Numbered from the stretch's first letter, positions 1 through 31,457 are shown. The stretch: 32,000 bases of DNA from Candidatus Saccharimonadota bacterium (GCA_016699145.1 CP064962.1:1306974-1338973), one strand, 5' to 3'. Notes: a model not told the origin generated them from the sequence alone. Numbers and translations: made by a program.

Positions 1-588
1 ATGATGATCAGCATTGCCGGGCCCATCGCAGAGGTTTTTGACTACCGACAGGGCAATTTCATCAGCGATCCCTCGGACTTCACGGAGCGGGTCCGAATTT
101 TTGACAATGTCACTCAACTCATCATCACTTTCCTCAAATATCTTTTAGGAGGACTCGCCACGCTCATGGCCGTTCGGGCGGGAGCCATGCTCGTGATGTC
201 AGGGGACAATGACGACGACGTGAGTAAGGCAAAAAAACAACTCACGCTCAGTCTAGCGGGTTTGATGCTCATTTTCGTTTCCAATTTGGTGATCCGTCGT
301 ATTTTCTATGTTGCCACTTACAGCACCAATGCCGAAGCCACCATCGTGCAACTGGACCAAAACGAATTCATTCGCCAACTCGTGGCTGTCACCAATTTGA
401 TGATCAGTTTCTTAGGCCCCATCATGATGCTGGGCATTGTGATTGGAGGCTTCCTTTACGTGACTTCTCAAGGGGAAGAAGAAAAGACGGGTCTCGCCAA
501 AAAAATCATCACCAATTCCATCATTGGAATCGTCATTATTTATGGAGCTTTTGCCCTTGTTTCAACTCTTATTGCAGGTCAATTCTAA
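1..588 (+). CDS. T4SS-pilin-like (TrbC/VirB2-type; resembles Pfam T4SS_pilin PF18895) membrane protein with two helical-hairpin modules. The 5' end may be cut by the window edge.
   Basis: Two copies of the pattern TM helix, short acidic/basic loop, TM helix: ...AGAMLVMSGDNDDDVSKAKKQLTLSLAGLMLIF... and ...GGFLYVTSQGEEEKTGLAKKIITNSIIGIVIIYGAFALV. The second matches my recollection of the T4SS_pilin consensus (G-x-x-Y-x-T-S-x-G-x-x-E-x-x-x-x-AKK-x-I-x-x-x-x-I-G). The ORF begins at base 1, so the true start is unknown. The next gene begins 3 nt downstream. Confidence 0.7.
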   Translation: MMISIAGPIAEVFDYRQGNFISDPSDFTERVRIFDNVTQLIITFLKYLLGGLATLMAVRAGAMLVMSGDNDDDVSKAKKQLTLSLAGLMLIFVSNLVIRRIFYVATYSTNAEATIVQLDQNEFIRQLVAVTNLMISFLGPIMMLGIVIGGFLYVTSQGEEEKTGLAKKIITNSIIGIVIIYGAFALVSTLIAGQF

Positions 589-591
589 TTC

Positions 592-1533
592 ATGAAAAAA
601 ATCCTCTTCACTTTCGCCCTCGCTGTGCTCGCCTCCACCGCACCCCATGTGGCAGCCACGAGCATTCAATTCCAAGAAATTTTGGATGATTTTCAAGAAG
701 ACGTAGCCAGCGAAAGTCAAGATGTGCAAGAAGGAGCAGAAGGCATCACCTTGCCCAATTTCAGTGAAGATGCTGAGGAAGGGGCCGACATCATTGTGTT
801 GACCATCCGCCGTTTTTTGGACTTTTTTAAACTGATTGTGGCTCCTTTTGCCGTGCTGTTCGCCGTCATCATGGGGGTACGCATGGTCTCTGCAGGTCAA
901 GAAAATGAAGAAGTGGCAGGACAAGCAAAAAATTTCATCCGCTACGCCTTGGAAGGTCTCATCATTATTTTTATGTCCGATTCCATTGTGAATGTGATGT
1001 TTGGCGCCGAAGGAGAAGTCTTCAGAGAAGGACAAGCGGGAGTGCAAGAGTTTGCAACGCGCAGCAGCAATCTTTTTAAAGGGATTTATACTTTGGTTCA
1101 AACCGTCATCGCCTCCATTGCCGTCTTTGTACTGGTCATGGCCGGGATGCGTTACGTGGTGGGTTCCACCAGTGACGACCAAATCGGTAAAGCCAAAAAT
1201 CAGATCAAATGGGCCTTTGTGGGTCTTTTTGTGATTGGGATTTCTGAATTTGTGGTCAAAGATATCCTCTTTGAAAACTATGGACAAACTCTGGGAATCG
1301 AATCCGCCAAAGAACTCTTTGTGGATCTCACCAATTTTGTTTCAGGCACTTTGGGAACCTTGGCTTTCGTCATGCTCATTTACGCAGGTTTTTTATACCT
1401 CACCGCTTCTCAAAACGAGGACAATGCCGCTAAAGCCAAGAAGATCATTTTTGCCGCTTTGATTGGAATTGTGATCGCCATTTCGGCCTTTGCCATCACA
1501 AACACCTTTGTGGAGCTTGATGCTTCCCGATAA
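592..1533 (+). CDS. Secreted or membrane T4SS-pilin-like protein with three tandem pilin hairpins
   Basis: Signal peptide MKKILFTFALAVLASTAPHVAA. Three hairpin loops each lie between hydrophobic helices: VSAGQENEEVAGQAKNFIRYALEGLIIIF, VVGSTSDDQIGKAKNQIKWAFVGLFVIGI and LTASQNEDNAAKAKKIIFAALIGIVIAISAFAI. The gene is tightly packed between pilin-like neighbours. Confidence 0.7.
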   Translation: MKKILFTFALAVLASTAPHVAATSIQFQEILDDFQEDVASESQDVQEGAEGITLPNFSEDAEEGADIIVLTIRRFLDFFKLIVAPFAVLFAVIMGVRMVSAGQENEEVAGQAKNFIRYALEGLIIIFMSDSIVNVMFGAEGEVFREGQAGVQEFATRSSNLFKGIYTLVQTVIASIAVFVLVMAGMRYVVGSTSDDQIGKAKNQIKWAFVGLFVIGISEFVVKDILFENYGQTLGIESAKELFVDLTNFVSGTLGTLAFVMLIYAGFLYLTASQNEDNAAKAKKIIFAALIGIVIAISAFAITNTFVELDASR

Positions 1534-1547
1534 CTCTCTATAATACT

Positions 1548-4500
1548 ATGGAAAGAATCCTCGCCATGACTTTAAAACCTCGTACCTTTCTCGCGACCCT
1601 GCTCCTCTTGAGCGGTCTCCTAACGGCCGTTCCGGTGGCTCAAGCCATCAGCGTTCCCATTGGGGATCAAGACTTGGAACAAGGGGATTTACAACCTGAA
1701 GATTGTGCCAATTTGGATGAAAGCTTAGCGGGTGCATTTGGCTGTGACACCAGCGATACCGTCACCGATTTTGTGGACTTCACCGGGGAATTGGAAGGAC
1801 CCGATGCCGCCGGTTACGACGAAGCTCTCACCGAAAACACCAATGCGCGCGATTTCATTCAATCCGTCGTCAACTTTGCACTTTCTTTTGTGGGACTGAT
1901 TTGTGTGGTCACCGTCATTTACGGAGGTCTCTTGTATGTGACCAGCCGTGGGGACGAAGAGCAAACCTCCAAAGCCAAAAAAGCCATCACTTATTCAGTG
2001 ATTGGAATTGTGATCATCATGGGGTCCTTTGCCTTTGTGAACACCATTTTGCAGGTGGGCGGCGGGGGAAGCACAGGAGACGGCAACGGCACGGCTTTGA
2101 ATGGAGAGACCATCAATGAATCGGGCGCCGCCTTCGACGTGAAAGACGTGCTCGACGAAATCGAACAAATCACCGAAGAATATGTGGAAGCCTATCAAAC
2201 CTTGCTCGCAGTGAATAAAGAAGTGTCCTCGATGCAAGCCTTAGAAATGCCCGTAGTGGTGGAAGTGACAGAAAGGGAAAGAAGTTTAGGAGGAGTGATC
2301 GACTTCACCACCGAATATTTTACCGGTGAAGACGACGATTTCGCCGACACCTATACGGTTTTGGAAGAAGCGAGAGTGGATGCTTACACCACCAGCCTCG
2401 CTCGTGCCGCTCAAAACATCATGTCCGAAACCGATGCCCTGAGTGACACTTATGAAGACGCTTATCAATTGTATCAATATTTGCAATACGGCAGCCGAAA
2501 TTTTGTGGCAGACGGTGACCCTGAGGCAGAGGCGTGTAACACGCTGAGTTTCAACGTTCGCGATAGAGAAGTGAATGGGAATTTGGGCTGGACCCGAACC
2601 GATGCCGAGGTGCAAGTGGTGGATCCTTACATTTGCAACTACATTGCCGCCATTTTGCAAAGCGCGGAATCCGACTACTTAGAAGTGATTGGAGATTCAG
2701 GTGTGGGGCTCATCGGTCGCTTTGAAGAATTGAAAGCGCTTTTCGACGTCAGTGAAAATGCAAGCGGTTCCAATCTCACCGGCATTGTGATGGCTTTGTC
2801 CAACGCACAAACCGCTTTGACCAATGCAAAAACCGTGATCAGCAACAGCACTATTCAAGAGATCCAATACGCTATGAACGAGCTTTATGAATTGGTGAAA
2901 AATGTCGAATTCGTTCAAGTGAGACTCACCGCTACGGTGGTGGAGGGCAATGCGCCTTTGTTGGTGCGTTTTGATATTTTGGGTACGGAAGATCCCAGCG
3001 GAAACACAGTGGAAGATGCTCAAATTCAATGGGATTTGGATGGAAATGGAGTTTATGACGAAGCCGCAGTGGGTGAAGATTTAGGCGCAGATTCCATCAG
3101 TTACATTTTTGATCAAGCAGGCACTTATAGAGTCAAAGTACGGGTGCTCAGTTCAGAACCCGACATTGCAGCAGGAGTTTCCACAGTGAGCATTCGAGTG
3201 CAGCCCGCAAAATCCCTCATCGTCATCAACGCCACAGTCGGTTCCAATGGCCCTCAAGCCATCGCCAACTTCATTCAGTCGCCAGCCATCAATAAGCCCA
3301 AGTTCAAAGTCACGGCCTCGGAAGCCTCCTCAGAAGCAGGGATTTTATTCGACGCCTCAGAAAGCACTGATGGAGAAGGAAACGTGTCTGGAATTCGCTA
3401 TTATGAATGGGACTTTGGGGACAATGAAACAGAAGCCGGCAATTTTGAGCAAGCGGCCACCATTCGTCATTTCTATGCTCAAGAAGGAGTCTATGACGTG
3501 TCGCTGACCGTCACCGATCAAGATGGCGTGAAAGACAGCAAATACTTTAAACTTTACGTTGCCACCCCTGCAGCTCGCATCAATGCGTCTCCGGCCCTGG
3601 GCATCGCAGGCACGACCTTCACCTTAGATGGATCTTCCTCCACCGCGGATGTCGGTTCGATTCGAAACTATCAATGGTCAGTGAGCAAGCAAGGAGGCGC
3701 CGCCATAAACCTTTCTCAAAACACCGGAAGCAGCATTCAAGTCACTTTAAACGAGCCTGGAATTTATGATGTGAACCTGAACGTATCCGACACTTCCTCT
3801 AAATCGGATGCAGCCACCGCCTTCGTGGTGGTGGAATCTCAAGCTCCTGTGGTGACTTACACCTATGAAATTGAAAATGAAAATCAGCCCTCCATTGTCA
3901 CTTTCGACGCTCGAAACAGTTACGATCCCGACCCCAACGACCGCTTGGAATTTTCTTGGGATTTCGGCGGCTTTGAAGGGGAGGATTACATCATTCTAGA
4001 AGAATCGGAAGATCAATCGGAAGTCACCGTTCAATTCTTAGACACCGGGGCTTACACCGTGCTGCTCACGGGTCACGATCAACACCCGCAGGCCATTCAA
4101 AAAAGCGACACAGCCACCGCCACCATTCAGGTGAATTCTATTTTGGATGTCGACCTCACAGTGAGCGGAGATGAAGCGCGGCATTTGAACCAAGATGGAG
4201 AAGCCGAAGTGGAATTCACTGCAGAAAGTGAATTCGGCTCCGCCTTTCAAATTGAATATGGAGACGGGGAAGTGGATTTTACCGACACACTCACCAATGG
4301 AAGAGCCATTTTCACTCATACTTACAAGCAAGCGGGGGTCTTTTATGTGAAACTCACCACCTACGATGACTCCGAACAGGAAGAAACCAACACCGACACT
4401 GTTCGTGTCTACATTGGCTCGGGCAACGCCCCCATTGCCGTGATTGGAATTGGAGCCGAAAACACCGACATCGGTACAGGGCCCAGTTTTGTGGGCAGCG

Positions 4501-6395
4501 TGAAAACAACCTTCACCTTCTCTGCAAGCAATTCTGTGAATGTGGACGGCAGCAATCAAAACCTAACTTACAGTTGGAATTTTGGAGATGGCAGCACGGC
4601 GAATCAAGCGACCGTTACCCATAAATTTACAGAAAAAGCCACCTACAACGTCACCCTCACTGTGAAAGATAAAAACGACCCCAGCATCAGTGATGAAGCC
4701 GTGGTTCCCATTCAAATTCAAGGCATTGAGCCCAAAATCCAAAGCATTTCAGTGGTTCCCGTAAGCACCACCGAACTCACCACACCCCTCAAGGTCAACG
4801 TCTCGGTTACTGCTTCTGATGACGATGGAAAAATCACTTACATAAGAGGCTGGTATTACGACTTGGACGATTCCGCCACTCCACTCGGAACCGTGATTTC
4901 AGAATCCGGAAACTTCACTCTCACGCTCAACACCAACGGAGAAGAAGGTGAAAATAAAGAATACGGTTTTGCCGTGGAAGTCACCGACAACGACAACCAA
5001 ACAGTGTCCAGTTTTGATCAACTCGATCCCGCAGACATCCCCACGCTTTCTGTCATCAACGGGCCCAACGACAGTCCCGTAGCCTCTTTTTCAGTGGATA
5101 AATCTTCTCGTTACGTGGGGGAAGAAGTCACCTTTTCAAGCCTTTCTTACGACCCCGATGGAGAAATCGTGACCTACTGGTGGGACATTGAAGGCGATGG
5201 ATTTTACAACAATGAGCCGACCCAAGTCAGCTCCTACACTTATGAATTTTCTCAAGTGCACAGTGAAGGCATCCCCGTGCGCTTAAAAGTGGAAGACAGT
5301 GCGGGCGCTACGGCTGAATCCGAACCCGTGATGATTTATGTGGACTCTTTGGCAGAAGATCCTGATGCCAAGTTTTTAACCGACATCGATGGCACTTATG
5401 TTCAGTTCCGTAACAATTCTTTTGTCGACAGTGAAAACGGCGCAGAACTCGCCGGCACGTATTGGGATTTTGACCTGCAAAACGACAGCGATGGCAATGG
5501 AGTCAAAGACGACGACTTCGATTCTTTTGAAGAAAATCCCACATACAATTACGAAGAATTCGGTGTTTATAAAGTCAAAATGACCGTGGTGGACACCGTT
5601 GGACAAAGCGACACCGTGACGCAAGACATTGAAGTCAAAGAAACCGCCGCACCCGTGGCTGCCTTCACCTTCACCGTAGATGAAAAAAACGTTACTTTTA
5701 GGAACACCAGCACCGTGGACACCGAACATGGAGTGGACGTGCGCACTTACGCCTGGGATTTCGACACCACTCTAGATTCCAATGGCGATTCAGAAACGGA
5801 CAATGACACTGATGCAGAATTGAAAAACCCAAGCCACGAATACGCGGATTACGGCACTTATGAAGTGACCCTCACCGTGGTGGATACCTATGGAAAAATC
5901 GACACGGTCACTCAAACGGTGGAAATTGAAAATCCCATTCAAGCCTTGAATGCCATCTTAAGCAGCGTGCCTCAAGCCAATTCTTTGTCTCAAATTCTAT
6001 TGAGGCAAGATGGCCAAGAAGTCAGTTTCTATTTTGGAGCCGAAGGGGGCAGTGAAGACTATCATTTCAGCTTGGATAAAAACATTTTTTACGACAGCAA
6101 CGCGGATGGAATACGCGACAACGACGAAGATTACAGCTCTTCTTCACCGGGTTCTTGGAAAACTCCTTTCTTCATTTCTTACGGACAAATCGTGACCAAA
6201 CTCACCGTAACCGACAATGAAACCGGCGACAGAGACATCAGCACCCTTCAAGTGGTCTTTGAAGGACACTTGGGAAGTGCTAATCTGTTCAATGCCACGC
6301 CCAAACAAATGGCACTGCTCATCTTGAGCGCCGCACTCACGGCTGCACTTGGAGTGAGCATGGCCTTTCGTTACAAACCTTTACCACGCCGCTAA
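1548..6395 (+). CDS. Giant (1615 aa) surface protein: signal peptide, one T4SS-pilin-like hairpin, a helical region, about 11 PKD/Ig-like domains and a C-terminal TM anchor
   Basis: Signal peptide ...LLLLSGLLTAVPVAQA. Pilin hairpin GGLLYVTSRGDEEQTSKAKKAITYSVIGIVIIMGSFAFV. Gly-rich linker GGGGSTGDGNG. PKD-type motifs recur about every 90-100 aa (IQWDLDGNG, YEWDFGDNE, YQWSVSKQ, FSWDFGG, IEYGDGE, YSWNFGDGS, YWWDIEGDG, TYWDFDLQNDSDGNG, YAWDFDTTLDSNGD). C-terminal tail MALLILSAALTAALGVSMAFRYKPLPRR. An alternative start at M7 (1566) gives a more canonical signal peptide. Confidence 0.8.
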   Translation: MERILAMTLKPRTFLATLLLLSGLLTAVPVAQAISVPIGDQDLEQGDLQPEDCANLDESLAGAFGCDTSDTVTDFVDFTGELEGPDAAGYDEALTENTNARDFIQSVVNFALSFVGLICVVTVIYGGLLYVTSRGDEEQTSKAKKAITYSVIGIVIIMGSFAFVNTILQVGGGGSTGDGNGTALNGETINESGAAFDVKDVLDEIEQITEEYVEAYQTLLAVNKEVSSMQALEMPVVVEVTERERSLGGVIDFTTEYFTGEDDDFADTYTVLEEARVDAYTTSLARAAQNIMSETDALSDTYEDAYQLYQYLQYGSRNFVADGDPEAEACNTLSFNVRDREVNGNLGWTRTDAEVQVVDPYICNYIAAILQSAESDYLEVIGDSGVGLIGRFEELKALFDVSENASGSNLTGIVMALSNAQTALTNAKTVISNSTIQEIQYAMNELYELVKNVEFVQVRLTATVVEGNAPLLVRFDILGTEDPSGNTVEDAQIQWDLDGNGVYDEAAVGEDLGADSISYIFDQAGTYRVKVRVLSSEPDIAAGVSTVSIRVQPAKSLIVINATVGSNGPQAIANFIQSPAINKPKFKVTASEASSEAGILFDASESTDGEGNVSGIRYYEWDFGDNETEAGNFEQAATIRHFYAQEGVYDVSLTVTDQDGVKDSKYFKLYVATPAARINASPALGIAGTTFTLDGSSSTADVGSIRNYQWSVSKQGGAAINLSQNTGSSIQVTLNEPGIYDVNLNVSDTSSKSDAATAFVVVESQAPVVTYTYEIENENQPSIVTFDARNSYDPDPNDRLEFSWDFGGFEGEDYIILEESEDQSEVTVQFLDTGAYTVLLTGHDQHPQAIQKSDTATATIQVNSILDVDLTVSGDEARHLNQDGEAEVEFTAESEFGSAFQIEYGDGEVDFTDTLTNGRAIFTHTYKQAGVFYVKLTTYDDSEQEETNTDTVRVYIGSGNAPIAVIGIGAENTDIGTGPSFVGSVKTTFTFSASNSVNVDGSNQNLTYSWNFGDGSTANQATVTHKFTEKATYNVTLTVKDKNDPSISDEAVVPIQIQGIEPKIQSISVVPVSTTELTTPLKVNVSVTASDDDGKITYIRGWYYDLDDSATPLGTVISESGNFTLTLNTNGEEGENKEYGFAVEVTDNDNQTVSSFDQLDPADIPTLSVINGPNDSPVASFSVDKSSRYVGEEVTFSSLSYDPDGEIVTYWWDIEGDGFYNNEPTQVSSYTYEFSQVHSEGIPVRLKVEDSAGATAESEPVMIYVDSLAEDPDAKFLTDIDGTYVQFRNNSFVDSENGAELAGTYWDFDLQNDSDGNGVKDDDFDSFEENPTYNYEEFGVYKVKMTVVDTVGQSDTVTQDIEVKETAAPVAAFTFTVDEKNVTFRNTSTVDTEHGVDVRTYAWDFDTTLDSNGDSETDNDTDAELKNPSHEYADYGTYEVTLTVVDTYGKIDTVTQTVEIENPIQALNAILSSVPQANSLSQILLRQDGQEVSFYFGAEGGSEDYHFSLDKNIFYDSNADGIRDNDEDYSSSSPGSWKTPFFISYGQIVTKLTVTDNETGDRDISTLQVVFEGHLGSANLFNATPKQMALLILSAALTAALGVSMAFRYKPLPRR

Positions 6396-6397
6396 TT

Positions 6398-8593
6398 ATG
6401 GATGTCACGCCCAATCCAATTCCAGAAAACAATCCAAATTTGGAAATGAAACCGAGTCCTGAGCCTGTGCCAAATGCTCCGTCACCTTTGCAAAATCCAG
6501 CGCCTCTGCAAAATTCCGCCTCTTTGCCCAATCCTGCTCCCAAAAAAACTCTGACTCCCGAAGAAAAAAAAGTCCAGCGCCAGGCCACGTTAAAACGCTT
6601 GGCCACGGTTTCAGTCGCCCTTTATGTCTTTCTTTTGTTGTTGATTTTTGCCTGGGGCACCTTCACCGCAGGGGTAGAACTCACGGTTTTTGATTACCTG
6701 CCGCTCAGCCAGAACACCTTCAGTGGAGCCTTGATGACTTTGTTTCATATTCTCTTAGGAGCCAGCGTTTTTATTTTGTTCTTCTACAGTTTAGTGGCTC
6801 TCCTTAAGTCCATGTTCACCAAAAAAGAAGAGGTGGAAAAAAAGAAAAAAGCGTCTCGAAAAGCATTGCTCGGAGGCTTGACCTTTCTCCTGTTTGCAGC
6901 CGCTTGGTTGGCGGGCATTTGGTATTTGGGGCCTCGTTTGGTGCTTACCGATCTTTACGAGTCTCCCATCAAAACCATTCCCACTCAAACGCTGGGTTTG
7001 ACTTCTCCCGTTGAAATTCGTTTCGATGCCAGTGGAATTCCGGTGGACACCAAGCTTTATAGAATTCTTTCTTACACCTGGGATTTTGGAGATGGAGCCA
7101 CGGCCAATGGAGTCAGCACTGCACACACTTACACGCAAAAAGCCACTGGAAACGGAATTTACACCGTGCTTCTTTCCGTGCGTTATGCCGATCTGAGCAC
7201 GGGTGAACAATTTGAAGACACTTTCAAAACCACCGTGGCCATTGCCAATGAAAAGACAGCCGCCTATTTCACGGCCAATCCTGAAGCAGGGGAATTGCCC
7301 TTGAAAGTGCATTTCGACGCCACCAGTTCTTATGATCCCGACGGGGAAATTGTGGCCTACGAATGGGATTTCGACAACGACGGAAGTTTTGATGATGGAG
7401 AAGGAGAAGAAATCGATCACACCTTCACTCAAGAAGGGGACTACCTCGTGTCTTTGCGCGTCACCGACAACAGTGGTGAATACAACACGGCCAGTCTCAC
7501 CATTGAAGCGGGAAGCATTGGAGGCTTGCGTGCCGTCATCACCACCAACGTCGCAGAAGGGGAAGCCTACTACTTGGACGAAGAATATAAATTCGATGGC
7601 TCTCTTTCACAAATTGGAGAAGGGAAAATCACTCAATACAGCTGGGATTTTGGAGATGGCAGTGTTGCCGTAAAGACGCGTTCCGTCAATCACCGTTTTG
7701 AAGCAGTGGGAGTTTATACGGTGGTGCTCACCGTGACCGATCCCGAAGGCAACAGCGATGAAAGCACGCTCGAAGTTCGGGTGGTGGAAGAAGGCTCCGC
7801 TCCCGAGGCAAAAATTTCTACGCTTCCAGCTTTAGAAAATAGAGCCGTTACGGGTCCGGTTCCTTTAGAAGTTCGTTTTGATGCCACTGCTTCTTTCGAT
7901 GAAGAAAACGACATCGTGGACTATGAATGGGATTTCGACAACGATGGAACGGTAGATGACACTGGGGACACCGCTACCCACACGTATCAAGTAGAAGGCT
8001 CTTTTGAAGCCCGCCTCATCACCACCGACTCGGTTGGGAATGTGGACGAAGCCCTCGTGCCCATTGAAGTGACAGCTCAAGGACTCATCGCTCGTCTCGA
8101 AATCGATCAAAGCAATGGAGAAGTGCCGCTCACCGTTGAATTCGACGCCAGCGCATCGACCTACAAAGAAGGCAACATTGTCTCTTATGAATACGATTTT
8201 GGGGATGGAAGTGACAGCTACATTGGAGGCTCCAGCGTCACATATCGTTACAATGCCGTGGGTACTTTCACCGCCAGCGTCACCGTGATCGCGAGCGACG
8301 GAAAAAGAGGCAGCACCAGCGTTCAAATTGTCGTTCGTCCTGTGGCTTTGACGGCTTGTTTCACCGTGAACACCGATTCCGGACAAGCACCCCTCTTCGT
8401 TTCTGTGGATCCTTCCTGTTCGGAGGGCACCGTGGATTCCTATCATTGGGATTTTGGCGACGGGGAAATCAGTTTTGACCGCAAACCCGAAACCCACACC
8501 TATTCCACTCCCGGCACCTACACCATCACTTTAGAAGTGACCAGTGCAGAAGGAATCGTCAGCGTCTTTGAAAATGAAATCACCGTGCGCTAA
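6398..8593 (+). CDS. Membrane-anchored PKD-domain protein (731 aa) with a Pro-rich N-terminus, three TM helices and six PKD domains
   Basis: N-terminus is rich in P/N/L (PSPLQNPAPLQNSASLPNPAP). Three hydrophobic helices; TM2, a charged loop and TM3 (LVALLKSMFTKKEEVEKKKKASRKALLGGLTFLL) loosely resemble the pilin hairpin. Six PKD motifs: YTWDFGDGA, YEWDFDNDG, YSWDFGDGS, YEWDFDNDG, YEYDFGDGS, YHWDFGDGE. The start lies 2 nt after the upstream stop. Confidence 0.8.
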   Translation: MDVTPNPIPENNPNLEMKPSPEPVPNAPSPLQNPAPLQNSASLPNPAPKKTLTPEEKKVQRQATLKRLATVSVALYVFLLLLIFAWGTFTAGVELTVFDYLPLSQNTFSGALMTLFHILLGASVFILFFYSLVALLKSMFTKKEEVEKKKKASRKALLGGLTFLLFAAAWLAGIWYLGPRLVLTDLYESPIKTIPTQTLGLTSPVEIRFDASGIPVDTKLYRILSYTWDFGDGATANGVSTAHTYTQKATGNGIYTVLLSVRYADLSTGEQFEDTFKTTVAIANEKTAAYFTANPEAGELPLKVHFDATSSYDPDGEIVAYEWDFDNDGSFDDGEGEEIDHTFTQEGDYLVSLRVTDNSGEYNTASLTIEAGSIGGLRAVITTNVAEGEAYYLDEEYKFDGSLSQIGEGKITQYSWDFGDGSVAVKTRSVNHRFEAVGVYTVVLTVTDPEGNSDESTLEVRVVEEGSAPEAKISTLPALENRAVTGPVPLEVRFDATASFDEENDIVDYEWDFDNDGTVDDTGDTATHTYQVEGSFEARLITTDSVGNVDEALVPIEVTAQGLIARLEIDQSNGEVPLTVEFDASASTYKEGNIVSYEYDFGDGSDSYIGGSSVTYRYNAVGTFTASVTVIASDGKRGSTSVQIVVRPVALTACFTVNTDSGQAPLFVSVDPSCSEGTVDSYHWDFGDGEISFDRKPETHTYSTPGTYTITLEVTSAEGIVSVFENEITVR

Positions 8594-11735: not shown

Positions 11736-12449
11736 CTAGCGGTATTGAACCAATGCAAGAGCTGCGATCACCGCCGTTTCCATGCGCAGCACCGTTTCTC
11801 CCAATAAAAACACTCGAGCATCCTTTGCTCTTAAAGCAGAGAGTTCCTCAGAACTGAGTCCGCCTTCAGGACCAATGAAAAGATTCACATCTTCTGCATT
11901 TGAGGGTAAAAGAGCAGCCAAAGGCCCATCGTAGTCCCACGCATCACCCACCAAGCTTGTGCCTTTAGGAAAGTTCATGAGCAAATCTTTAAAAGAAAGC
12001 AGTCCATGCAAGTGAGGCAAATGATTGCGCTCGCATTGTTCTGCCGCTTCTTTCATAATGGCAAGCAAACGGTCATTTTTACGCAATTCATGCACTTGAG
12101 TGCGTTCGGTTTCGAGTGGAATCAGCTCGGTGACGCCCATTTCGCTGGCTTTTTCAACGATCCATTCAAAGGTGGACGGTTTTTTTGAAAGAGCCACATA
12201 CAAACGCAGCGCTCGTTTAGGCGCAGTCACTCGCTCACGCGCTTCGATTCTAAACATGGCTTCCTTGGAGTGAAATTCTTCTAAAACAGCTTTGGCTTTG
12301 CCCCCGCGATTGTCTAAAAGCACGCAAGTATCCCCTTTGCGAAAACGCAGTACATCCTTCATTTGATGTAAAAGATTTTTTTCAGTGATATGAACTGAAG
12401 GGGCGCTCAAATCTGCATCCAAAAAAAAGTGTTGAATTTGTCGCATCAT
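11736..12449 (-). CDS. rsmE: 16S rRNA (uracil1498-N3)-methyltransferase RsmE
   Basis: PUA-like N-terminus (HQMKDVLRFRKGD) and C-terminal SPOUT motifs (FIGPEGGLSSEEL, LLGETVLRMETA). Overlaps the polX stop by 4 nt (ATGA). Confidence 0.85.
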   Translation of the reverse strand: MMRQIQHFFLDADLSAPSVHITEKNLLHQMKDVLRFRKGDTCVLLDNRGGKAKAVLEEFHSKEAMFRIEARERVTAPKRALRLYVALSKKPSTFEWIVEKASEMGVTELIPLETERTQVHELRKNDRLLAIMKEAAEQCERNHLPHLHGLLSFKDLLMNFPKGTSLVGDAWDYDGPLAALLPSNAEDVNLFIGPEGGLSSEELSALRAKDARVFLLGETVLRMETAVIAALALVQYR

Positions 12450-13423
12450 TGAAAGTGGTGACGTTCTTGCGGAGTCATATAAGGCATTTCCAGTGCTTCA
12501 AACATTTCTTCCTCCGTTTTGCCAGCAAGTTTTTCTTCCCCCTGATACACGCCATATTCATTGATTTTGAGGCCTCGTTTCAAAGCCAAAGTGCGCACAT
12601 GGATATTGAATTGCTTGGGGCCGGTGAAATAAAAAAGAGCCGCTCCAAAACTGTCTTCATCCACCACGCGAAAATCCACCTGAAGGTTGCCATGAATCAC
12701 CACGCTGGATTTGGTTTCCCCTTCGGCAAGCACAGTTTGAACTTTAGGGTAAGCAATGAAATACTTCATAAGTGCTGCAACCGTTTCAGTACTCATATTT
12801 TTCCCTCCGGTAGCCAAAAGATCCAAATCGCCAATGGTGCTTTGCCCTCTTCGCAAACTGCCCGCATAAACCACTTCTTTAATGAGAAGATTTTTTCGCA
12901 AATAACTCAAATAGGCTTCGGCCTCCGGCAAAGCCACTTCATGAGGAGTGCGTGTCTTACTTTGAGTGTTTTCATTCAACGCCACCAAAATGGCGGACTG
13001 ACTTTTTTCACCCATCCCTGGCAGAGTCGCCAGGGCACCGCTTTCGGCGGCACTGCGGAGTTGCTCCAAACTTTGAATGCCCAATTGCTCATAAAAGAGC
13101 TTCACTTTTTTAGGACCGATGCCGCGCACTCGCAAAATGTCCAAAATGCCCGGAGACAGTTTTTTCATGAGTCGTTCATGCATTTCACAGTGCCCGGTTT
13201 CTAAAATTTCCACGATTTTTGCATGCAAATCTTTGCCAATGCCAGGAATTTCCTCTAAATCTGCATCGCGATTTTTATGCATTTCTTTCAGGTCACTCAG
13301 CCCCCGAATGACTTCTGCTGCTCGGCGATAGGCTCGCACGCGAAACACATTTTCCCCAAGCACGTCGAGCATGTCGGCGATCTCTTCAAAAATTTGAACA
13401 ATGTGATCGTTTGCAAGAGACAT
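12446..13423 (-). CDS. polX: Family X DNA polymerase, Pol-beta-like core only (no PHP domain)
   Basis: N-terminal 8-kDa/HhH region (IFEEIADMLDVLGENVFRVRAYRRAA, GIGKDL, GIGPKK). Nucleotidyltransferase motif GSLRRGQSTIGDLDLL. Ends at ...MPYMTPQERHHFQ, the linker that normally precedes the PHP domain in bacterial PolX. Confidence 0.85.
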   Translation of the reverse strand: MSLANDHIVQIFEEIADMLDVLGENVFRVRAYRRAAEVIRGLSDLKEMHKNRDADLEEIPGIGKDLHAKIVEILETGHCEMHERLMKKLSPGILDILRVRGIGPKKVKLFYEQLGIQSLEQLRSAAESGALATLPGMGEKSQSAILVALNENTQSKTRTPHEVALPEAEAYLSYLRKNLLIKEVVYAGSLRRGQSTIGDLDLLATGGKNMSTETVAALMKYFIAYPKVQTVLAEGETKSSVVIHGNLQVDFRVVDEDSFGAALFYFTGPKQFNIHVRTLALKRGLKINEYGVYQGEEKLAGKTEEEMFEALEMPYMTPQERHHFQ

Positions 13424-13489: not shown

Positions 13490-14724
13490 ATGGACATTCT
13501 TGTGATTGGAGGAGGGGCAGCCGGCATGATGGCCGCAGTGGAGGCTGTGCAAAATCCTCAGGCCAAAGTGATGCTCATCGAAAAAAATCCAGGCCTCGGA
13601 CACAAAGTGCTCATTTCGGGTGGAGGTCGCTGCAACGTGACCACCGGTTTTCACGATCTTCGAGCTCTTGTTCAACGCTATCCACGTGGAGGAAAATTCT
13701 TGCAATCGGCTTTTTATCGTTTTTCACCTCAGGCTGTGATGGATTGGTTTGAGACCCACGACGTGCCCTTAAAAGTGGAGGCAGACGGACGCGTTTTTCC
13801 TCAATCCGACAATGGCAAGGATGTGCTGGGCGCTCTCGAAAAATCCCTTCAAGCAAAGGGAGCAAAAATTCTGCTGCGAAAAGAAGTCGCCTCCATTCAA
13901 AAAGAGAGGCGTTTTCTCGTAACTCTCAAGTCCGGCGAAAGCTTCGAAGTGGACAAAGTCATTCTCACAACCGGTGGACAGGCCTATCGACACACGGGTT
14001 CCACAGGGGACGGCTATAGCTTTGCCGAAAGCTTGGGACATCACATCACACCGCTCGCTCCCAGCCTCAACTCTTTCATTGTGAAAGAAAATGGCCTCGT
14101 GAATTGGCGGGAGTTTCCCTCAAAAAAGTTCAGCTCAAAATCAAAACGAAGCAAAAATATGAATGGACGGGACCCATCCTCTTCACTCATAGAGGCATCA
14201 CGGGGCCAGCTGTTTTTGCGCTTTCTTCCATGATCGCTTTTGAAAATTACAGTGAAAAAGAACCGCTACTCCTACTCTTAGATTTTTGCCCGGACACCAA
14301 GGCCAATGTGCTGGAAGAAGAGCTAACGAAAGAACTCAAAGAAAACCCAAAAAAACAATTCAACAATCTGCTCGCTCGCTTCGTTCCTCGCTCGCTCGCC
14401 TTAAAACTCTGCGAAGCTCTGGCCCTCCCCGAAGAAAAAATCAGTGCCGAACTCAGCAAAAAAGATTTTCACCGAACACTTGAACTGCTTAAAAATTGCC
14501 CCATACAACTCATCGGGCGTGCCGCCGGGGAAGAATTCGTCACTGCCGGGGGAGTGGACACCGATGAAGTCGATCCTCGCAGCATGGAATCCAAAATCTG
14601 TCCCGACCTTTATTTTGCCGGAGAAATTTTAAACGTGGATGGCTTCACGGGCGGTTTCAATTTACAAGCCGCTTGGGCCACCGGACATCTGGCAGGGGTC
14701 AGCGCCGCAGAACTCAAGGCTTGA
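13490..14724 (+). pseudogene. HI0933/YhiN-family NAD(P)/FAD-dependent oxidoreductase, split by a 1-nt frameshift in an A-run near 14084-14092
   Basis: The N-terminal ORF (13490-14233) has MDILVIGGGAAGMMAA and ISGGGRCNVT. The C-terminal ORF (14104-14724) has FTHRGITGPAVF and GEILNVDGFTGGFNLQAAWATG. Homology-like continuity switches frame at gtgaaagaaaatgg. Adding one A would give ...PSLNSFIVKEKWPRELAGVSLKKV... Confidence 0.8.
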
Positions 14725-22486: not shown

Positions 22487-25207
22487 ATGGCACAGCTCAG
22501 CAAAATCTGGGAATTCATCCTCGGAATGTGGGATAAAGTGAAGGGCCTATGGACCGCTCTGCAAAGCCATTTTCCATGGATTCAAGAAAATTATATTGAC
22601 TTGATCCTCGGCCTACTGGGCCTGTGGGTCATGATTCGCGTGGGGCCTTGGTTTGTGCGCCAAGCCTACGACTTTTATGAATCTCATAAACGAGTGGTCA
22701 TTCAAATCACCATGCCTCGCGAGGAGTCTCAAAAAGACAAAGAAAACGCAACCGAAAAGGACTTTCGCGAAAAAATGGGCGTCATGGAACAACTCTATCG
22801 TGCTATTCATGAAATCCATGAATTGAATCTATGGAATCAAATCATGGTCAAATGCTTTGCGCGCGACAGCATCACTTTTGAAATTTTTGCCAAGCACAAA
22901 GACATCACTTTTTTCTGCACCATTCATCCCTATTACAAAGACGTTTTAGAAAAACAGATCACTTCATTTTACCCCACGGCGGAAATCGCTTACATTGCAT
23001 CGTCCACGCTCAAAGCCGAAGAAGGAAAAAAACATCTGACCAAAAAAGGCTATTACCTTTACACCAAAAACACCAACTGGCTGCCGCTCAAAACCTATAA
23101 AACCATTGAAAACGATCCACTGAACGATTTGACCAATGTTTTGTCGCAACTCAAAGAAAATGAAAAAGCCATGCTTCAAATGATGATCCGTCCGCGAGAT
23201 GAAAAATGGCAAAAAGAGGCCAATGCCTATGCCACTGCAAAATTCAAAAATGAGGAACCTCAAAAACGAGGAATTTTACGCACCCTCGTAAGACCCTTGA
23301 GTTGGCTCTTCACAGCCATGATTTTTGGCTACGACCAAGCCGAAAAAAACAGCCCTCCACCCGGAGCAAAAAGTGGAGACTCTTACGTGCGTATGCTGCA
23401 AACCGAAGAAGAAATTGCCAAACGCATCGGTGAAAAATCCAACCAAGTCGGTTTCGACACTGTGATTCGCATCATGGCCGCCTCCGATGAAGGAGAATCC
23501 CGTTGCGACTCCATTTTGGACGGACTTTTTGTGGCCTTCAACACCACCAAAGATGCCGCTTCAAACTGGTTCCAAGCGAGGCGCCTCATCCCCATCGACT
23601 TCATCAACAGTCCCATTCTTTACATGAGTCTCATCGATCGCAATTTTCAGTTCGGAGAAAAATCATCCATTTTAACTCCCGAAGAGCTCGCCACTATTTT
23701 TCATTTTCCAAACAGCCGTTACAACTACACACCGCTCATCAAATGGATGTCTTATAAAGTGCTTCCTGCTCCCACCGAAATGGGTACAGATGGAATTTTC
23801 TTGGGTTACAATGTGTTCCGTGGAGTCAAAAAACCCGTGCATTTCCGCAAAAAAGATCGCGCTCGCCACCACTACATCATCGGGCAAACCGGTACAGGTA
23901 AATCATCCTACATCAGTCAAATGGCTCGCCAAGACATTGCCAATGGCGATGGAGTGTGTGTGATAGACCCGCACGGGGACCTCATTGAAGACATTTTGCA
24001 ATACATTCCTAAAGAAAGGGCCAAGGATGTGATCGTCTTCGATCCAGCCGATTCTGAGCGCCCCATGGGACTCAACATGCTCGAAGCCAAAACTCCCGAG
24101 CAGCAAGACATGGCCTCCAGTCAAGCGACTGAAATTTTTATCAAAATCTTCGGAGATGAAATTTTTGGACCTCGCATTCAGCATTATTTCAGAAACGCCT
24201 GTCTCACTCTTATGGAAGACCCCGACGAAGGCGCCACACTCATCGATGTGCCTCGTATTTTCGTGGATGAGCAATTCATGCGTTACAAGGTTTCTAAGGT
24301 GAAAAATCCTGTCGTCAAATCTTTCTGGGATCATGAATACGCCAACACCGGTGACCGCGAACGCCAAGAAATGATTCCTTATTTCTCCGCGAAATTCGGC
24401 CCGTTCATCACGAACTCCATCATGCGCAACACCATCGGTCAGGCCAAGTCGGCCTTCAACATTCGCGAGTGCATGGATCAGCAAAAAATCCTTCTTGTGA
24501 ATCTTTCAAAAGGGAAGCTTGGAACACTCAATACGCAGCTGCTTGGACTTGTGCTCGTGGCTCAAATCCAAATGGCCGCAATGAGCCGTGTGGATACGCC
24601 CGAAGAACAGCGCAAAGATTTTTATCTTTACGTGGATGAATTCCAAAACTTCGCCACCGACACATTCTGTTCTATTCTCTCGGAAGCTCGTAAATACAAA
24701 CTCGTGCTCATCATGGCTCACCAATACATCGGTCAGCTCACGGTGACAAAAGGGGGCAGCACCAGCACTCAAATTCGCGACGCTGTGTTCGGTAACGTGG
24801 GAACCATGCAATCCTTCAAAGTGGGTGCCGATGATGCGGAATATTTATCTAAAGAATACGCGCCAGTGCTCACGGAGCAAGATGTGATTGGAATCGCCAA
24901 TTACAAGGCTTATATGAAGATGAATTTGAACAACACCGCATCTCGTCCTTTTTCACTGGAAACCGTATTCGACGAAAGTCAAAAAAATGAGAAAGTACGT
25001 CAGGTGATCAAAGAATATTCCCGCATGAAATATGGAAGAAAACGCAGCTTTGTGGAGCAAGAAATTGCAGCCCGCATCGGGGTGAATGTAGAAGAGCTTG
25101 GAAAGGACGTAAAAGCCGATTACACTGCAACTGCGCCTCAAGCGGCAGCCGCTGAAGAACCGCTACATCAGCCCATCACTTCGCCGACACAAAATGCAGG
25201 TTCCTGA
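22487..25207 (+). CDS. VirD4/TraD/TraG-like type IV coupling-protein-family P-loop ATPase (FtsK/HerA superfamily) with an N-terminal TM segment
   Basis: N-terminal hydrophobic helix (LILGLLGLWVMI). Walker A HHYIIGQTGTGKSS, Walker B FYLYVDEFQNFAT. Downstream LIMAHQYIGQL...FGNVGTMQSFKVG..DAEYLSKEY resembles the T4CP C-terminal motifs. The assignment within the superfamily comes from motif recollection, not a search. Confidence 0.6.
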   Translation: MAQLSKIWEFILGMWDKVKGLWTALQSHFPWIQENYIDLILGLLGLWVMIRVGPWFVRQAYDFYESHKRVVIQITMPREESQKDKENATEKDFREKMGVMEQLYRAIHEIHELNLWNQIMVKCFARDSITFEIFAKHKDITFFCTIHPYYKDVLEKQITSFYPTAEIAYIASSTLKAEEGKKHLTKKGYYLYTKNTNWLPLKTYKTIENDPLNDLTNVLSQLKENEKAMLQMMIRPRDEKWQKEANAYATAKFKNEEPQKRGILRTLVRPLSWLFTAMIFGYDQAEKNSPPPGAKSGDSYVRMLQTEEEIAKRIGEKSNQVGFDTVIRIMAASDEGESRCDSILDGLFVAFNTTKDAASNWFQARRLIPIDFINSPILYMSLIDRNFQFGEKSSILTPEELATIFHFPNSRYNYTPLIKWMSYKVLPAPTEMGTDGIFLGYNVFRGVKKPVHFRKKDRARHHYIIGQTGTGKSSYISQMARQDIANGDGVCVIDPHGDLIEDILQYIPKERAKDVIVFDPADSERPMGLNMLEAKTPEQQDMASSQATEIFIKIFGDEIFGPRIQHYFRNACLTLMEDPDEGATLIDVPRIFVDEQFMRYKVSKVKNPVVKSFWDHEYANTGDRERQEMIPYFSAKFGPFITNSIMRNTIGQAKSAFNIRECMDQQKILLVNLSKGKLGTLNTQLLGLVLVAQIQMAAMSRVDTPEEQRKDFYLYVDEFQNFATDTFCSILSEARKYKLVLIMAHQYIGQLTVTKGGSTSTQIRDAVFGNVGTMQSFKVGADDAEYLSKEYAPVLTEQDVIGIANYKAYMKMNLNNTASRPFSLETVFDESQKNEKVRQVIKEYSRMKYGRKRSFVEQEIAARIGVNVEELGKDVKADYTATAPQAAAAEEPLHQPITSPTQNAGS

Positions 25208-27774: not shown

Positions 27775-28222
27775 TTAACATAAGACTTTGAGTAAAAGTG
27801 CCACAAGGCAGAGGGAGATAAAGGAGGCATACATCAGGTCTAATTTGTCATAGCGAGTTGAAATTCTTCTGTGATTTTTCATTCGGTGAAATAGGCGTTC
27901 AATCTCGTTGCGGTAGGCATAAATGTTCTTGTTGTATTCCCACGGAAATTTCATTTTGCCTTTGGAGGAACGACTGGAGTTATGCCTTTTTCTTTGCACA
28001 GCTCCAGAACTTTGTAGCATGAATAACCTTTGTCCATAGCCAAATGATCTACTGTTTTTGGAAACGAATAATCTCTCAAAATTTGTTTTCCAACTTTCAC
28101 ATCGCTCACTTCACCACCTGTTAAAACAAAGTGCATCCCATGATCTGGATCTCCAGCAATCATGTGAATTTTTGTAGTGTACCCACCTCTACTTCGGCCT
28201 AACGCTTGTGGCCCCTTTTTTT
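27775..28222 (-). pseudogene. IS5-family transposase OrfB (DDE domain), reached by a -1 frameshift on A7 and carrying an additional frameshift near 27951-27962
   Basis: The -1 frame after the A7 run reads KGPQALGRSRGGYTTKIHMIAGD..., the canonical GRSRGG.TTKIH motif. The second part, ..KFPWEYNKNIYAYRNEIERLFHRMKNHRRISTRYDKL, is in yet another frame. The two fragments (27951-28163 and 27775-28020) join only across ...ccaaaggcaaaatgaaatttccg... Confidence 0.75.
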
Positions 28223-28552
28223 CATGGCTCCCGCTGCACTGTGGTGCGCTCTATTTGTTGTACTGTCCAGGAAAGCTATTCGCACTTGAAGTACATCTGC
28301 TACTTCAAGTGCTCTAAGCATTTGTCCAAAAAGTCCAGATTCGCTCCACCGTTTGTATCTTGTATAAATCGTGTGCCAGTCATTCTCTTTTTCTCTGTAA
28401 TCGTAGGGCATTTGTCTCCATGCGCACCCTGTTTTAAGTACATAACAAATGGCATCCATGCAACGTTTCAGTGGAATCTTTTCAGGCTTTCTGGGCTTTG
28501 GAAAATAAGGCTGGATCAGTTTGAACTGTTCATCCGTTAGCATCTGGTACAT
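28199..28552 (-). CDS. IS5-family transposase OrfA (DUF4096-like HTH part)
   Basis: LTDEQFKLIQPYFPKP...RCMDAICYVLKTGCAWRQMP......W.TIYTRYKRWSESGLF is typical of IS5/IS427-group OrfA. It ends just after an A7 run (minus strand, 28216-28222). Confidence 0.85.
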   Translation of the reverse strand: MYQMLTDEQFKLIQPYFPKPRKPEKIPLKRCMDAICYVLKTGCAWRQMPYDYREKENDWHTIYTRYKRWSESGLFGQMLRALEVADVLQVRIAFLDSTTNRAHHSAAGAMKKRGHKR

Positions 28553-28652
28553 GGCGTTAGGGTTAGAGTAACTTCACTCTACACCACTCCTCTATTTATG
28601 TTAACAGCTCCTAGTATCATTAAAGCATGAATTGAGACAAATGTCAAACTGC

Positions 28653-29588: not shown

Positions 29589-29646
29589 ACTGCTCAAATT
29601 GCAGCTCGCTGAACTTCAAGCTATGCTCTAAAACACAGAAAACATT

Positions 29647-29802: not shown

Positions 29803-29870
29803 ATATTAATACGAATATTTTGATAGCTTTCATAACTGGAGAAGAAACAGTGATTAGTTTTTTAAAGTGA
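29799..29870 (+). pseudogene. Possible truncated PIN-domain (VapC-like) toxin N-terminal remnant (23 codons)
   Basis: MNINTNILIAFITGEETVISFLK* resembles the PIN N-terminus (M..LDTNvLIa.l.G....), with N in place of the first catalytic D and a premature stop. It has an ATGA overlap with the upstream small ORF. Confidence 0.2.
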
Positions 29871-31385: not shown

Positions 31386-31457
31386 GGGGGACTATACGGA
31401 AAAAGAGTCCTGCGAGCAAGGGCAAGAGGCCCCTTCGTTAAGGGGATATTTCAGATT

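What the first reader, a model, noticed from the sequence alone, without database searches (positions are those of the whole stretch)
1..8593. Operon of concatenated T4SS-pilin hairpins (2x, 3x, 1x, 1x degenerate) ending in two PKD-array proteins
Seen in sequence: four consecutive + strand genes are separated by only 3, 14 and 2 nt. All four contain the same module, a TM helix followed by a short loop (T/S-x-G-acidic...AKK/AKN) and a second TM helix. The first (possibly partial) protein has two modules, the second has three, the third has one, and the fourth has one degenerate module.

Established knowledge: the module looks like the TrbC/VirB2-type pilin fold, specifically the T4SS_pilin family that is abundant in CPR bacteria. 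Classical conjugative pilins are single-hairpin subunits.

Inference: polypeptides carrying 2-3 hairpins in tandem, next to hairpin-adhesin fusions, suggest a filament or envelope assembly built from covalently linked pseudo-oligomers with dedicated adhesive minor subunits. I am not aware that this arrangement has been characterised.

No VirB4, VirB6 or other machinery gene is adjacent downstream. The machinery may lie upstream of the window.
Basis: partly seen in the sequence, partly recalled or inferred. Interest (0 to 1): 0.8.

Follow-up and report, generated by a model that had tools for sequence, protein, structure and literature searches.

The report
Fused multi-hairpin pilin and adhesin operon
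An uncultivated Peregrinibacteria bacterium carries a conserved four-gene operon in which the small helical-hairpin subunit of conjugative pili is fused three times per protein, or fused to long PKD adhesin arrays; the arrangement is real and widespread, and I found no paper describing it.

Summary
Four co-directional genes (1-588, 592-1533, 1548-6395, 6398-8593) are separated by 3, 14 and 2 nt.

Pfam T4SS_pilin (PF18895) hits:
- Gene 1: 2 hairpins, E 1e-15.
- Gene 2: 3 hairpins, E 4e-28.
- Gene 3: 1 hairpin, E 6e-11, followed by 9 PKD domains.
- Gene 4: 6 PKD domains and no significant pilin hit. The proposed degenerate hairpin has only weak support.

Gene 1 is cut by the window edge. Its full-length orthologues have a signal peptide and 3 hairpins.

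The cassette is syntenic in 29 Peribacteria/Peregrinibacteria species, between secE-nusG-rplKA and a lyase/rlmE pair. It therefore belongs to the vertically inherited core genome. No VirB4 or VirB6 gene lies upstream in any relative. A VirD4-like ATPase sits 14 kb downstream in the window.

Hairpin concatenation is not unique to this locus. A library search found proteins with up to 8-17 hairpins, some in archaea. Several sit next to, or are fused to, PKD proteins, and none of 9 sampled sits near VirB4.

Best reading (confidence 0.5): a membrane-rooted assembly of covalently linked VirB2-type hairpins that carries PKD adhesins. Whether it extends as a pilus is unresolved.

The papers I searched describe only arrays of separate pilin genes. 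I rate this a new variant of a known kind.

The parts
1..588 (+). Gene 1, the 3' part only (195 of about 310 codons). It is a triple-hairpin T4SS_pilin protein. The window starts inside helix 2 of hairpin 1. Hairpin 2 is at about nt 115-318 and hairpin 3 at about nt 367-585.
   Evidence: Pfam PF18895, 2 stretches, E 1.1e-15. Orthologues are 302-357 aa with a signal peptide and 3 stretches.
592..1533 (+). Gene 2, 313 aa. It has a Sec signal peptide (aa 1-22, ...HVAA|T) and an acidic N-terminal segment, followed by three hairpins at nt 796-1011, 1072-1281 and 1315-1527.
   Evidence: PF18895, 3 stretches, E 3.6e-28. NF045849, 57.3 bits against a cutoff of 40. AF2 pLDDT 82 with helices 64-101/106-137, 147-190/195-226 and 236-274/276-311. 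119 homologue clusters, mostly about 310-350 aa.
1548..6395 (+). Gene 3, 1615 aa. In order: signal peptide; acidic segment; one canonical hairpin (nt 1854-2066); a roughly 300-aa domain with no family hit (nt 2070-2987); the PKD array (about nt 2988-6230); and a C-terminal TM helix with a basic tail (nt 6312-6392).
   Evidence: PF18895 E 6.3e-11, and PKD_4 9 stretches E 3e-69. Hydropathy. The C-terminal GANLFNATP motif, TM and basic tail are conserved. The hairpin is closest to the third hairpins of genes 1 and 2, with hhalign probability 99%.
6398..8593 (+). Gene 4, 731 aa. In order: proline-rich N-terminal segment (presumably cytoplasmic); TM1 (aa 68-86); a hairpin-like TM2, K-rich loop and TM3 (aa 108-183, nt 6719-6946); and six PKD domains.
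   Evidence: PKD_4 6 stretches, E 3e-87, with no PF18895 hit. NF045849 E 1.8e-4, below its cutoff. hhalign probability 7-53%. The counterpart in L030 has a single TM anchor.
22487..25207 (+). VirD4/TraD-like coupling-protein ATPase, 906 aa. It is not adjacent to the cassette, and any link to it is unproven.
   Evidence: TrwB_AAD_bind E 1.7e-12, with a TraG-D_C hit exactly at its 22-bit cutoff. The TraD and VirD4-like NCBIfam hits are far below their cutoffs. A similar ATPase lies 3.7 kb from a 7x-hairpin/PKD gene pair in L037.

Best explanation
The four genes form one operon. It encodes a membrane-rooted surface assembly built from VirB2-type helical hairpins.

- Genes 1 and 2 are Sec-exported proteins. 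Each has three hairpins in a row, so all hairpins share the N-out/C-out topology with the basic loop in the cytoplasm. These are covalently linked pseudo-trimers that form the structural core.
- Gene 3 carries one hairpin of the same type, fused to about 1,400 residues of ectodomain that includes 9 PKD domains.
- Gene 4 carries a hairpin-like membrane anchor and 6 PKD domains.
- Genes 3 and 4 dock into or beside the hairpin lattice through their membrane parts. They present PKD arrays for attachment to a partner cell or a surface.

Shown: the family membership of the hairpins, their number, the predicted hairpin fold, the signal peptides, the operon conservation and the recurrence elsewhere.

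Inferred: that the four proteins co-assemble, that they act in adhesion, and the geometry of the assembly (short tube, ring or pilus).
For: - T4SS_pilin hits are above threshold in genes 1-3. Multi-hairpin relatives also pass the TrbC/VirB2 threshold at 51-84 bits.
- The hairpin of gene 3 is most like the third hairpins of genes 1 and 2 (hhalign 99%, 37-46% identity).
- Gene order, sizes and tight or overlapping junctions are kept in 29 species, down to 27-39% identity.
- Signal peptides plus an even number of TM helices give a topology compatible with linking the hairpins.
- AF2 predicts three hairpins.
- The same pairing of a multi-hairpin gene with PKD membrane proteins occurs in unrelated contexts: L030 (8x + 1x + 1x-PKD + PKD protein), L037 and L035.
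- Separate VirB2-like pilin arrays are essential in a cultivated patescibacterium (PMC10633639). No T4SS adhesin has been found in the phylum (PMC12102498).
Against: - There is no direct evidence that the four proteins interact or leave the membrane.
- No VirB4, VirB6, VirB3 or VirB8 gene lies within about 10 kb in 29 orthologous loci, nor within the DNA recovered around 9 other multi-hairpin genes (up to 10 kb each side; one contig is only 4 kb).
- Fold searches found no significant match to solved pilins. The best pilin hit was 8dfu at rank 15, E 3.7, and the PDB sequence profile search found none.
- Gene 3 is anchored at both ends, which does not fit a subunit carried away on a growing pilus.
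- The hairpin of gene 4 is unproven.
Confidence: 0.5

Rival explanations
1. True T4SS pilus. Genes 1 and 2 are major pilins, as linked trimers, that a VirB4-type machine encoded elsewhere extracts from the membrane and polymerises into an extended lipid-containing pilus. Genes 3 and 4 are minor or tip adhesins. This is a more specific form of the best explanation, so its probability is contained within that one.
For: - Family membership in T4SS_pilin.
- VirB4 is present in 2,417 of 3,035 Patescibacteria assemblies, and its components are scattered in the class Gracilibacteria (PMC12102498).
- A T4CP-like ATPase lies in the window.
- The topology matches membrane-stage VirB2/TraA (established knowledge).
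Against: - No VirB4 lies near any of the 38 loci examined.
- The C-terminal TM anchor of gene 3 is conserved.
- Translationally coupled genes at roughly 1:1:1:1 are unlike a major/minor pilin ratio (inference).
- Chains with up to 17 hairpins, in archaea next to housekeeping genes, are hard to thread through a pilus assembly site.
Confidence: 0.2
2. Static polytopic membrane proteins. Genes 1 and 2 are six-helix integral membrane proteins that evolved from pilin hairpins. They now act as a channel or platform, functionally like VirB6 or a transporter, and form no repeating lattice. Genes 3 and 4 are ordinary membrane-anchored adhesins.
For: - Six TM helices per chain with conserved extracellular linkers.
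- VirB6 is undetectable in Gracilibacteria (PMC12102498).
- 'Extended VirB6' proteins combine polytopic cores with large hydrophilic domains (PMC12857230).
- The whole-chain fold search gave no pilin match.
Against: - No hit to TrbL/VirB6 or any transporter family above threshold.
- A variable copy number (2-17) of near-identical hairpin units is typical of an oligomer-forming subunit rather than a fixed transporter fold.
- The hairpin of gene 3 is closely related to those of genes 1 and 2.
Confidence: 0.22
3. Polyprotein precursors. Genes 1 and 2 are cleaved between hairpins into single mature pilins, which saves gene space in a small genome.
For: - In other lineages multi-hairpin genes sit inside arrays of single-hairpin pilin genes (L033, L038).
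- The inter-hairpin linkers are conserved.
- Classical pilins are proteolytically matured (established knowledge).
Against: - No conserved signal-peptidase-type AXA site lies at the ends of the hairpins (alignment).
- AF2 models the linkers as short structured helical connections.
- No dedicated protease is encoded in the operon.
Confidence: 0.08

Closest known systems
VirB2-like pilin gene arrays of Patescibacteria (Southlakia epibionticum T4SS locus SEML1_0006-0019; survey in PMC12102498)
   Same: Same Pfam family (PF18895), same phylum, several divergent hairpin paralogues side by side, and a chromosomal, relaxase-free setting.
   Different: Those are separate single-hairpin genes (2-11 per array), and VirB2-like genes lie near virB4 in 1,135 of 1,948 assemblies. 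Here the hairpins are fused 3 per chain or fused to PKD arrays. The operon stands alone next to secE-nusG, with no VirB4 within 10 kb.
Classical conjugative pilins VirB2, TrbC and TraA (PF04956)
   Same: Leader or signal peptide, two hydrophobic helices joined by a short basic loop, and N-out/C-out membrane topology. Relatives of this family pass the PF04956 threshold.
   Different: Those have one hairpin per polypeptide and are encoded with VirB3-VirB11. The window proteins score below the PF04956 gathering score (23.1 and 19.7 bits against 27.9). There is no significant sequence or fold match to solved pilins.
Mbov_0395/MMCAP2_0565 pilin-like protein of Mycoplasma ICEs (NCBIfam NF045849)
   Same: Gene 2 scores above the model's cutoff (57.3 against 40), and gene 3 scores 39.2. 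The host is a monoderm.
   Different: That is an 80-aa single-hairpin protein of a mobile element. Here the proteins are multi-hairpin or adhesin-fused and sit in the core genome.
Archaeal Ced/Ted conjugation-type pili (for example the Aeropyrum pernix pilus, PDB 8dfu)
   Same: A helical-hairpin pilin in a cell without an outer membrane. It was the only pilin among the top fold matches (TM 0.59/0.61).
   Different: The match is not significant (E 3.7, rank 15). Those pilins are single hairpins.
Fused proteolipid (c) subunits of V/A-type ATPases (own knowledge, used as an analogy only)
   Same: A helical-hairpin subunit of a cylindrical homo-oligomer that has been duplicated in-frame into 2, 3 or more hairpins per chain.
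   Different: There is no sequence relationship, and the function (an ion-translocating rotor ring) is different.
T4SS surface adhesins (VirB5 at the pilus tip, PrgB in Gram-positive systems)
   Same: The role proposed for genes 3 and 4 is contact with a target cell.
   Different: There is no homology. Here the adhesive part is a PKD array covalently joined to a pilin hairpin.

Membership tests
Pfam PF18895 T4SS_pilin | Whole-protein score above the gathering score (26.6 bits) | tested here: met
   Gene 1 scores 57.9 bits, gene 2 97.9 and gene 3 42.6. The gene 1 orthologue in L009 scores 75.6 bits with 3 stretches.
Pfam PF18895 T4SS_pilin (gene 4) | Whole-protein score above the gathering score | tested here: not met
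   No PF18895 hit at E<=1. The only signals are NF045849 at E 1.8e-4 and 21 bits, below its cutoff of 40, and hhalign probability of 53% or less.
Pfam PF04956 TrbC/VirB2 | Score above the gathering score (27.9 bits) | tested here: not met
   Gene 1 scores 23.1 bits and gene 3 19.7 bits. The threshold is met by multi-hairpin relatives P0137 (83.8), P0172 (68.7), P0184 (60.8) and P0120 (51.2).
VirB2-type conjugative pilin | Cleavable leader followed by a two-helix hydrophobic hairpin with a short basic loop | tested here: met
   Signal peptides with AXA sites are present in genes 2 and 3 and in gene 1 orthologues. Hydropathy and charge were mapped. AF2 hairpins were obtained.
VirB2-type conjugative pilin | Fold matches solved pilins | tested here: inconclusive
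VirB2-type conjugative pilin | Encoded with the T4SS machinery (VirB4, VirB3, VirB6, VirB8) | tested here: not met
   None is present within about 10 kb in 29 orthologous loci. In the window there is only a VirD4-like ATPase, 14 kb away. The whole genome was not searched.
VirB2-type conjugative pilin | Polymerises with phospholipid into an extracellular pilus | not testable with these tools
   This needs cryo-EM or cryo-ET, or multimer modelling.
PKD-domain surface protein (PF18911/PF00801) | Repeated PKD domains above threshold, placed outside the membrane | tested here: met
   Gene 3 has 9 stretches (229.5 bits) and gene 4 has 6 stretches (287.2 bits). Both arrays follow an in-to-out TM helix.
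CPR Pam pilus (donor-strand-exchange pilins; PamR, NF058578) | Score above the model cutoff (300 bits) | tested here: not met
   Scores are 44.5 and 36.5 bits, confined to Ig/PKD-like stretches. That system is built from Ig-fold pilins (bioRxiv 10.64898/2026.03.03.709456).

The most novel reading that the evidence does not exclude
The multi-hairpin proteins define a surface organelle that does not depend on VirB4. It would be shared by CPR bacteria and some archaea (Altiarchaeales). Covalently concatenated VirB2 hairpins, 3 to 17 per chain, would self-organise into a membrane-rooted tube or ring. That structure would carry PKD or other ectodomains and mediate contact, and perhaps exchange, with partner cells. 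It would be distinct from the VirB4-linked arrays of single pilin genes.
Probability: 0.2. Interest if true: 0.85.

Novelty: new variant of a known kind. Interest (0 to 1): 0.62.

Why it matters
Patescibacteria are the only monoderm bacteria whose type IV secretion loci encode VirB2-like pilins. Recent reviews name these systems among the most interesting open cases, but no filament has been seen and no adhesin identified.

A core-genome operon that fuses the pilin hairpin three times per chain and also joins it to PKD adhesin arrays offers three things:
- A candidate adhesin for these systems.
- A natural 'linked oligomer' that constrains how the hairpins pack.
- Evidence that part of this pilin family may work apart from VirB4.

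The same fusion principle reaches 8-17 hairpins per chain in other uncultivated bacteria and archaea, so the finding extends well beyond this one genome.

Tried and rejected
- **Exact look-up of gene 2** found no contig on record, so the DNA upstream of the window could not be read directly. Synteny in relatives was used instead.
- **The first alignment** was too diverse for the genome scan. A narrower one worked.
- **Homologue searches with the gene 3 N-terminus** gave one hit, then none. The roughly 300-aa domain after the hairpin therefore stays uncharacterised and could not be modelled with a deep alignment.
- **The PDB sequence profile search** found no pilin.
- **A C-terminal sorting-signal model** for gene 3 was sought in NCBIfam and not found.
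- **The Pam pilus system of CPR** was considered and rejected. It uses an Ig fold with donor-strand exchange, and the window proteins give only sub-threshold PKD-like hits.
- **A mobile-element origin** was rejected because the cassette holds the same chromosomal position, between secE-nusG-rplKA and lyase/rlmE, in about 25 species.
- **The 657-aa protein downstream of gene 4** in some relatives was checked as a possible VirB4. It has no ATPase or any other Pfam hit.
- **The supplement of PMC12102498** held no entries for Peribacterales.
Full report
**1. What is in the sequence**

The first 8.6 kb of the window hold four + strand ORFs:
- Gene 1: 1-588.
- Gene 2: 592-1533, 313 aa.
- Gene 3: 1548-6395, 1615 aa.
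- Gene 4: 6398-8593, 731 aa.

The next gene, a Lyase_1 family enzyme, is convergent and overlaps the end of gene 4.

Pfam results:
- T4SS_pilin (PF18895) in gene 1: two stretches, E 1.1e-15.
- T4SS_pilin in gene 2: three stretches, E 3.6e-28.
- T4SS_pilin in gene 3: one stretch, E 6.3e-11.
- PKD domains: nine stretches in gene 3 and six in gene 4.
- Gene 4 has no pilin hit.

NCBIfam places gene 2 above the cutoff of the Mycoplasma ICE 'pilin-like conjugal transfer protein' model NF045849 (57 bits against 40). Gene 3 falls just under it.

**2. Corrections to the observation**

- **Gene 1 is cut by the window edge.** Its first residues align inside the second helix of the first hairpin of its orthologues. 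Those are 302-357 aa long, with a signal peptide and three PF18895 stretches. The real array is therefore 3x, 3x, 1x+9 PKD, ?+6 PKD.
- **Gene 4 has three hydrophobic helices.** The second and third, joined by a lysine-rich loop, have the topology of a pilin hairpin. Homology is not established:
  - hhalign probabilities against the seven true modules are 7-53%.
  - The best NCBIfam hit of its first 200 residues is the same pilin-like model, but at 21 bits, below the cutoff of 40.
  - The gene 4 counterpart in another lineage (L030) has only a single TM anchor.
- **Gene 3 ends in a conserved motif** (G-A/S-N-x-F...), followed by a TM helix and a basic tail. Its roughly 1,400-residue ectodomain is therefore tethered at both ends, unless the tail is removed.

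**3. Anatomy of the hairpins**

Genes 2 and 3 have Sec signal peptides with AXA sites, as do the gene 1 orthologues, followed by an acidic segment. Each module is a long helix, a short loop (acidic first, then K-A-K-K) and a second helix. With a cleaved signal peptide and an even number of helices, every hairpin is N-out/C-out with the basic loop inside. From established knowledge, this is the membrane topology of VirB2/TraA, and it allows hairpins to be linked head to tail.

AlphaFold2 on gene 2 (89-sequence alignment, pLDDT 82, pTM 0.61) gives three hairpins at 64-101/106-137, 147-190/195-226 and 236-274/276-311. A single gene 3 hairpin also models as a hairpin, with pLDDT 79.

Profile-profile comparison splits the modules into two types:
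- The third hairpins of genes 1 and 2 and the gene 3 hairpin form a 'canonical' type (probability 99%, 33-46% identity).
- The first and second hairpins form another.

**4. Conservation and context**

The source is a Candidatus Peregrinibacteria bacterium. A 100% identical protein, IPG41_07145, lies on a 1.34 Mb contig. Gene 2 has 119 homologue clusters, mostly about 310-350 aa.

In 29 species-level genomes of Peribacteria/Peregrinibacteria the four genes keep order, size and tight or overlapping junctions wherever the contig reaches, down to 27-39% identity.
- Upstream of gene 1 in about 25 of them lie secE, nusG, a conserved ORF, rplK and rplA on the other strand.
- Downstream lie the lyase and rlmE, as in the window.
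- None has a VirB4-, VirB6- or other machinery gene within 9-10 kb.
- A 657-aa protein that follows gene 4 in a few deep-branching genomes has no Pfam hit.

The cassette is thus a vertically inherited core operon and not part of a mobile element. The suggestion that the machinery lies just upstream is not supported. The window does hold a VirD4/TraD-like ATPase at 22487-25207, between a class II aminoacyl-tRNA synthetase gene and a LytR-family gene. Such ATPases are common and usually unlinked to virB4 in this phylum (PMC12102498).

**5. The phenomenon is general**

I searched a profile of the six window hairpins against 1.84 billion representative proteins.
- 52,938 family members were found at E<=0.001.
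- 152 scored E<=1e-30. All of the 150 listed have at least two stretches.
- The top hits have 2-17 matched stretches: 8 in an 820-aa protein, 10 in a 1,039-aa protein of an Altiarchaeales archaeon, and 17 by this profile (11 by Pfam) in a 1,775-aa protein.
- These relatives pass the TrbC/VirB2 gathering score at 51-84 bits, which ties the family to classical pilins.

Nine genomic contexts were read:
- L030 repeats the logic of this operon in a different neighbourhood: an 8x hairpin protein, a single pilin, a pilin-PKD fusion, and a PKD protein 35% identical to gene 4.
- In L037, a 7x protein is followed by an 803-aa protein with weak PKD hits, and a coupling-protein ATPase lies 3.7 kb away. 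In the syntenic L039, the following 864-aa protein has no Pfam hit.
- L035 has 7 hairpins and 2 PKD domains in one chain.
- In L033 and L038 the multi-hairpin gene sits inside an array of single pilin genes. In L040 (a 4-kb contig) a second multi-hairpin gene precedes it.
- In the archaeal loci L034 and L036 the gene lies beside housekeeping genes.
- None has VirB4 within the DNA available.

**6. Comparison with what is known**

The literature I could search describes the following:
- Arrays of 2-11 separate VirB2-like genes in Patescibacteria, with VirB2-like genes near virB4 in 1,135 of 1,948 assemblies.
- An essential six-pilin array in Southlakia epibionticum.
- No detected T4SS adhesin in the phylum (PMC12102498, PMC10633639, PMC12857230).

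No paper found mentions several hairpins in one polypeptide or pilin-PKD fusions. The recently described Pam pili of CPR are Ig-fold, donor-strand-exchange filaments and are unrelated.

The structural membership tests were uninformative. Foldseek against the PDB gave only generic helical hairpins. The Aeropyrum conjugation pilus ranked 15 at E 3.7. The PDB sequence profile found no pilin.

**7. Interpretation**

The best-supported reading is that the operon builds one membrane-rooted assembly. Genes 1 and 2 provide linked triple hairpins as the core. Gene 3, and probably gene 4, join through their membrane parts and display PKD arrays for adhesion.

The support is:
- The shared hairpin type.
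- The strict four-gene conservation and coupling.
- The recurrent pairing of multi-hairpin genes with PKD membrane proteins.

It is not shown that the proteins interact, that they leave the membrane, or that a VirB4 machine is involved.

Three points argue against a long classical pilus and for a short stalk, ring or in-membrane lattice, though they do not exclude a pilus:
- The double anchoring of gene 3.
- The roughly equimolar genetic layout.
- The lack of VirB4 linkage here and at nine other loci.

The rivals are a true T4SS pilus assembled by distant machinery, a static polytopic membrane protein, and a polyprotein cleaved into single pilins. Fused c-subunits of rotary ATPases (own knowledge) show that hairpin subunits of cylindrical oligomers can be concatenated in evolution.

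**8. Verdict**

The family assignment is right. The upstream-machinery idea is wrong. The filament idea is untested. This is a new variant of a known kind, namely patescibacterial VirB2-like pilins. It is of good but not exceptional interest, because function and geometry remain inferred.

Noticed in passing
window 22487-25207 (+): A 906-aa VirD4/TraD-like coupling-protein ATPase (TrwB_AAD_bind, TraG-D_C) with a roughly 450-aa N-terminal part of unknown nature. It stands alone between a class II aminoacyl-tRNA synthetase gene and a LytR_cpsA_psr gene. A similar ATPase lies 3.7 kb from a 7x-hairpin/PKD gene pair in L037.
   Followed up: partly
window 6290-6392 (gene 3 C-terminus): A conserved motif G-(A/S)-N-(L/N)-(F/I/V)-(F/N)..., followed by a TM helix and a basic tail, is kept across both deep branches of the orthologues although the TM sequence changes. 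It looks like a sorting or processing signal. No NCBIfam sorting-signal model matched. Sortase A is reported in Peribacteria genomes (PMC4736985).
   Followed up: partly
window 2070-2987 (gene 3 residues about 175-480): A domain of about 300 residues between the hairpin and the PKD array has no Pfam or NCBIfam hit. The homologue search for it returned nothing, although orthologues clearly exist in loci L001-L027.
   Followed up: partly
L034 6128-9247 and L036 10001-15328: Archaeal (Altiarchaeales and a related MAG) proteins have 10 stretches and 17 stretches (11 by Pfam) of VirB2-type hairpins in one chain, with cysteine-rich linkers. Both sit in the same place, between a ribosomal L39e gene and an Mrp-type antiporter operon.
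   Followed up: partly
window 13490-14233 and 14104-14724 (+): An HI0933-like flavoprotein is split into two overlapping ORFs in different frames. This may be a frameshift, a pseudogene or a sequencing error.
   Followed up: no
window 28199-31172: A cluster of insertion-sequence remnants. It holds an IS4/5-type DUF4096 ORF (28199-28552, -) and two IS3-family integrase-core copies (28694-29578, and 29930-31172 split in two ORFs). Two tRNA-Met genes follow at 31311-31534 (-).
   Followed up: no
window 12446-13423 (-): A family X (DNA polymerase beta-like) polymerase gene in a small CPR genome.
   Followed up: no
L009 (OZ246396.1, bases 17182-38081 of a 1.3 Mb chromosome): In this complete chromosome the cassette lies about 27 kb from the start of the record. 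If the record starts at dnaA, this would fit the reported placement of T4SS genes near the origin in Patescibacteria (PMC12102498).
   Followed up: no
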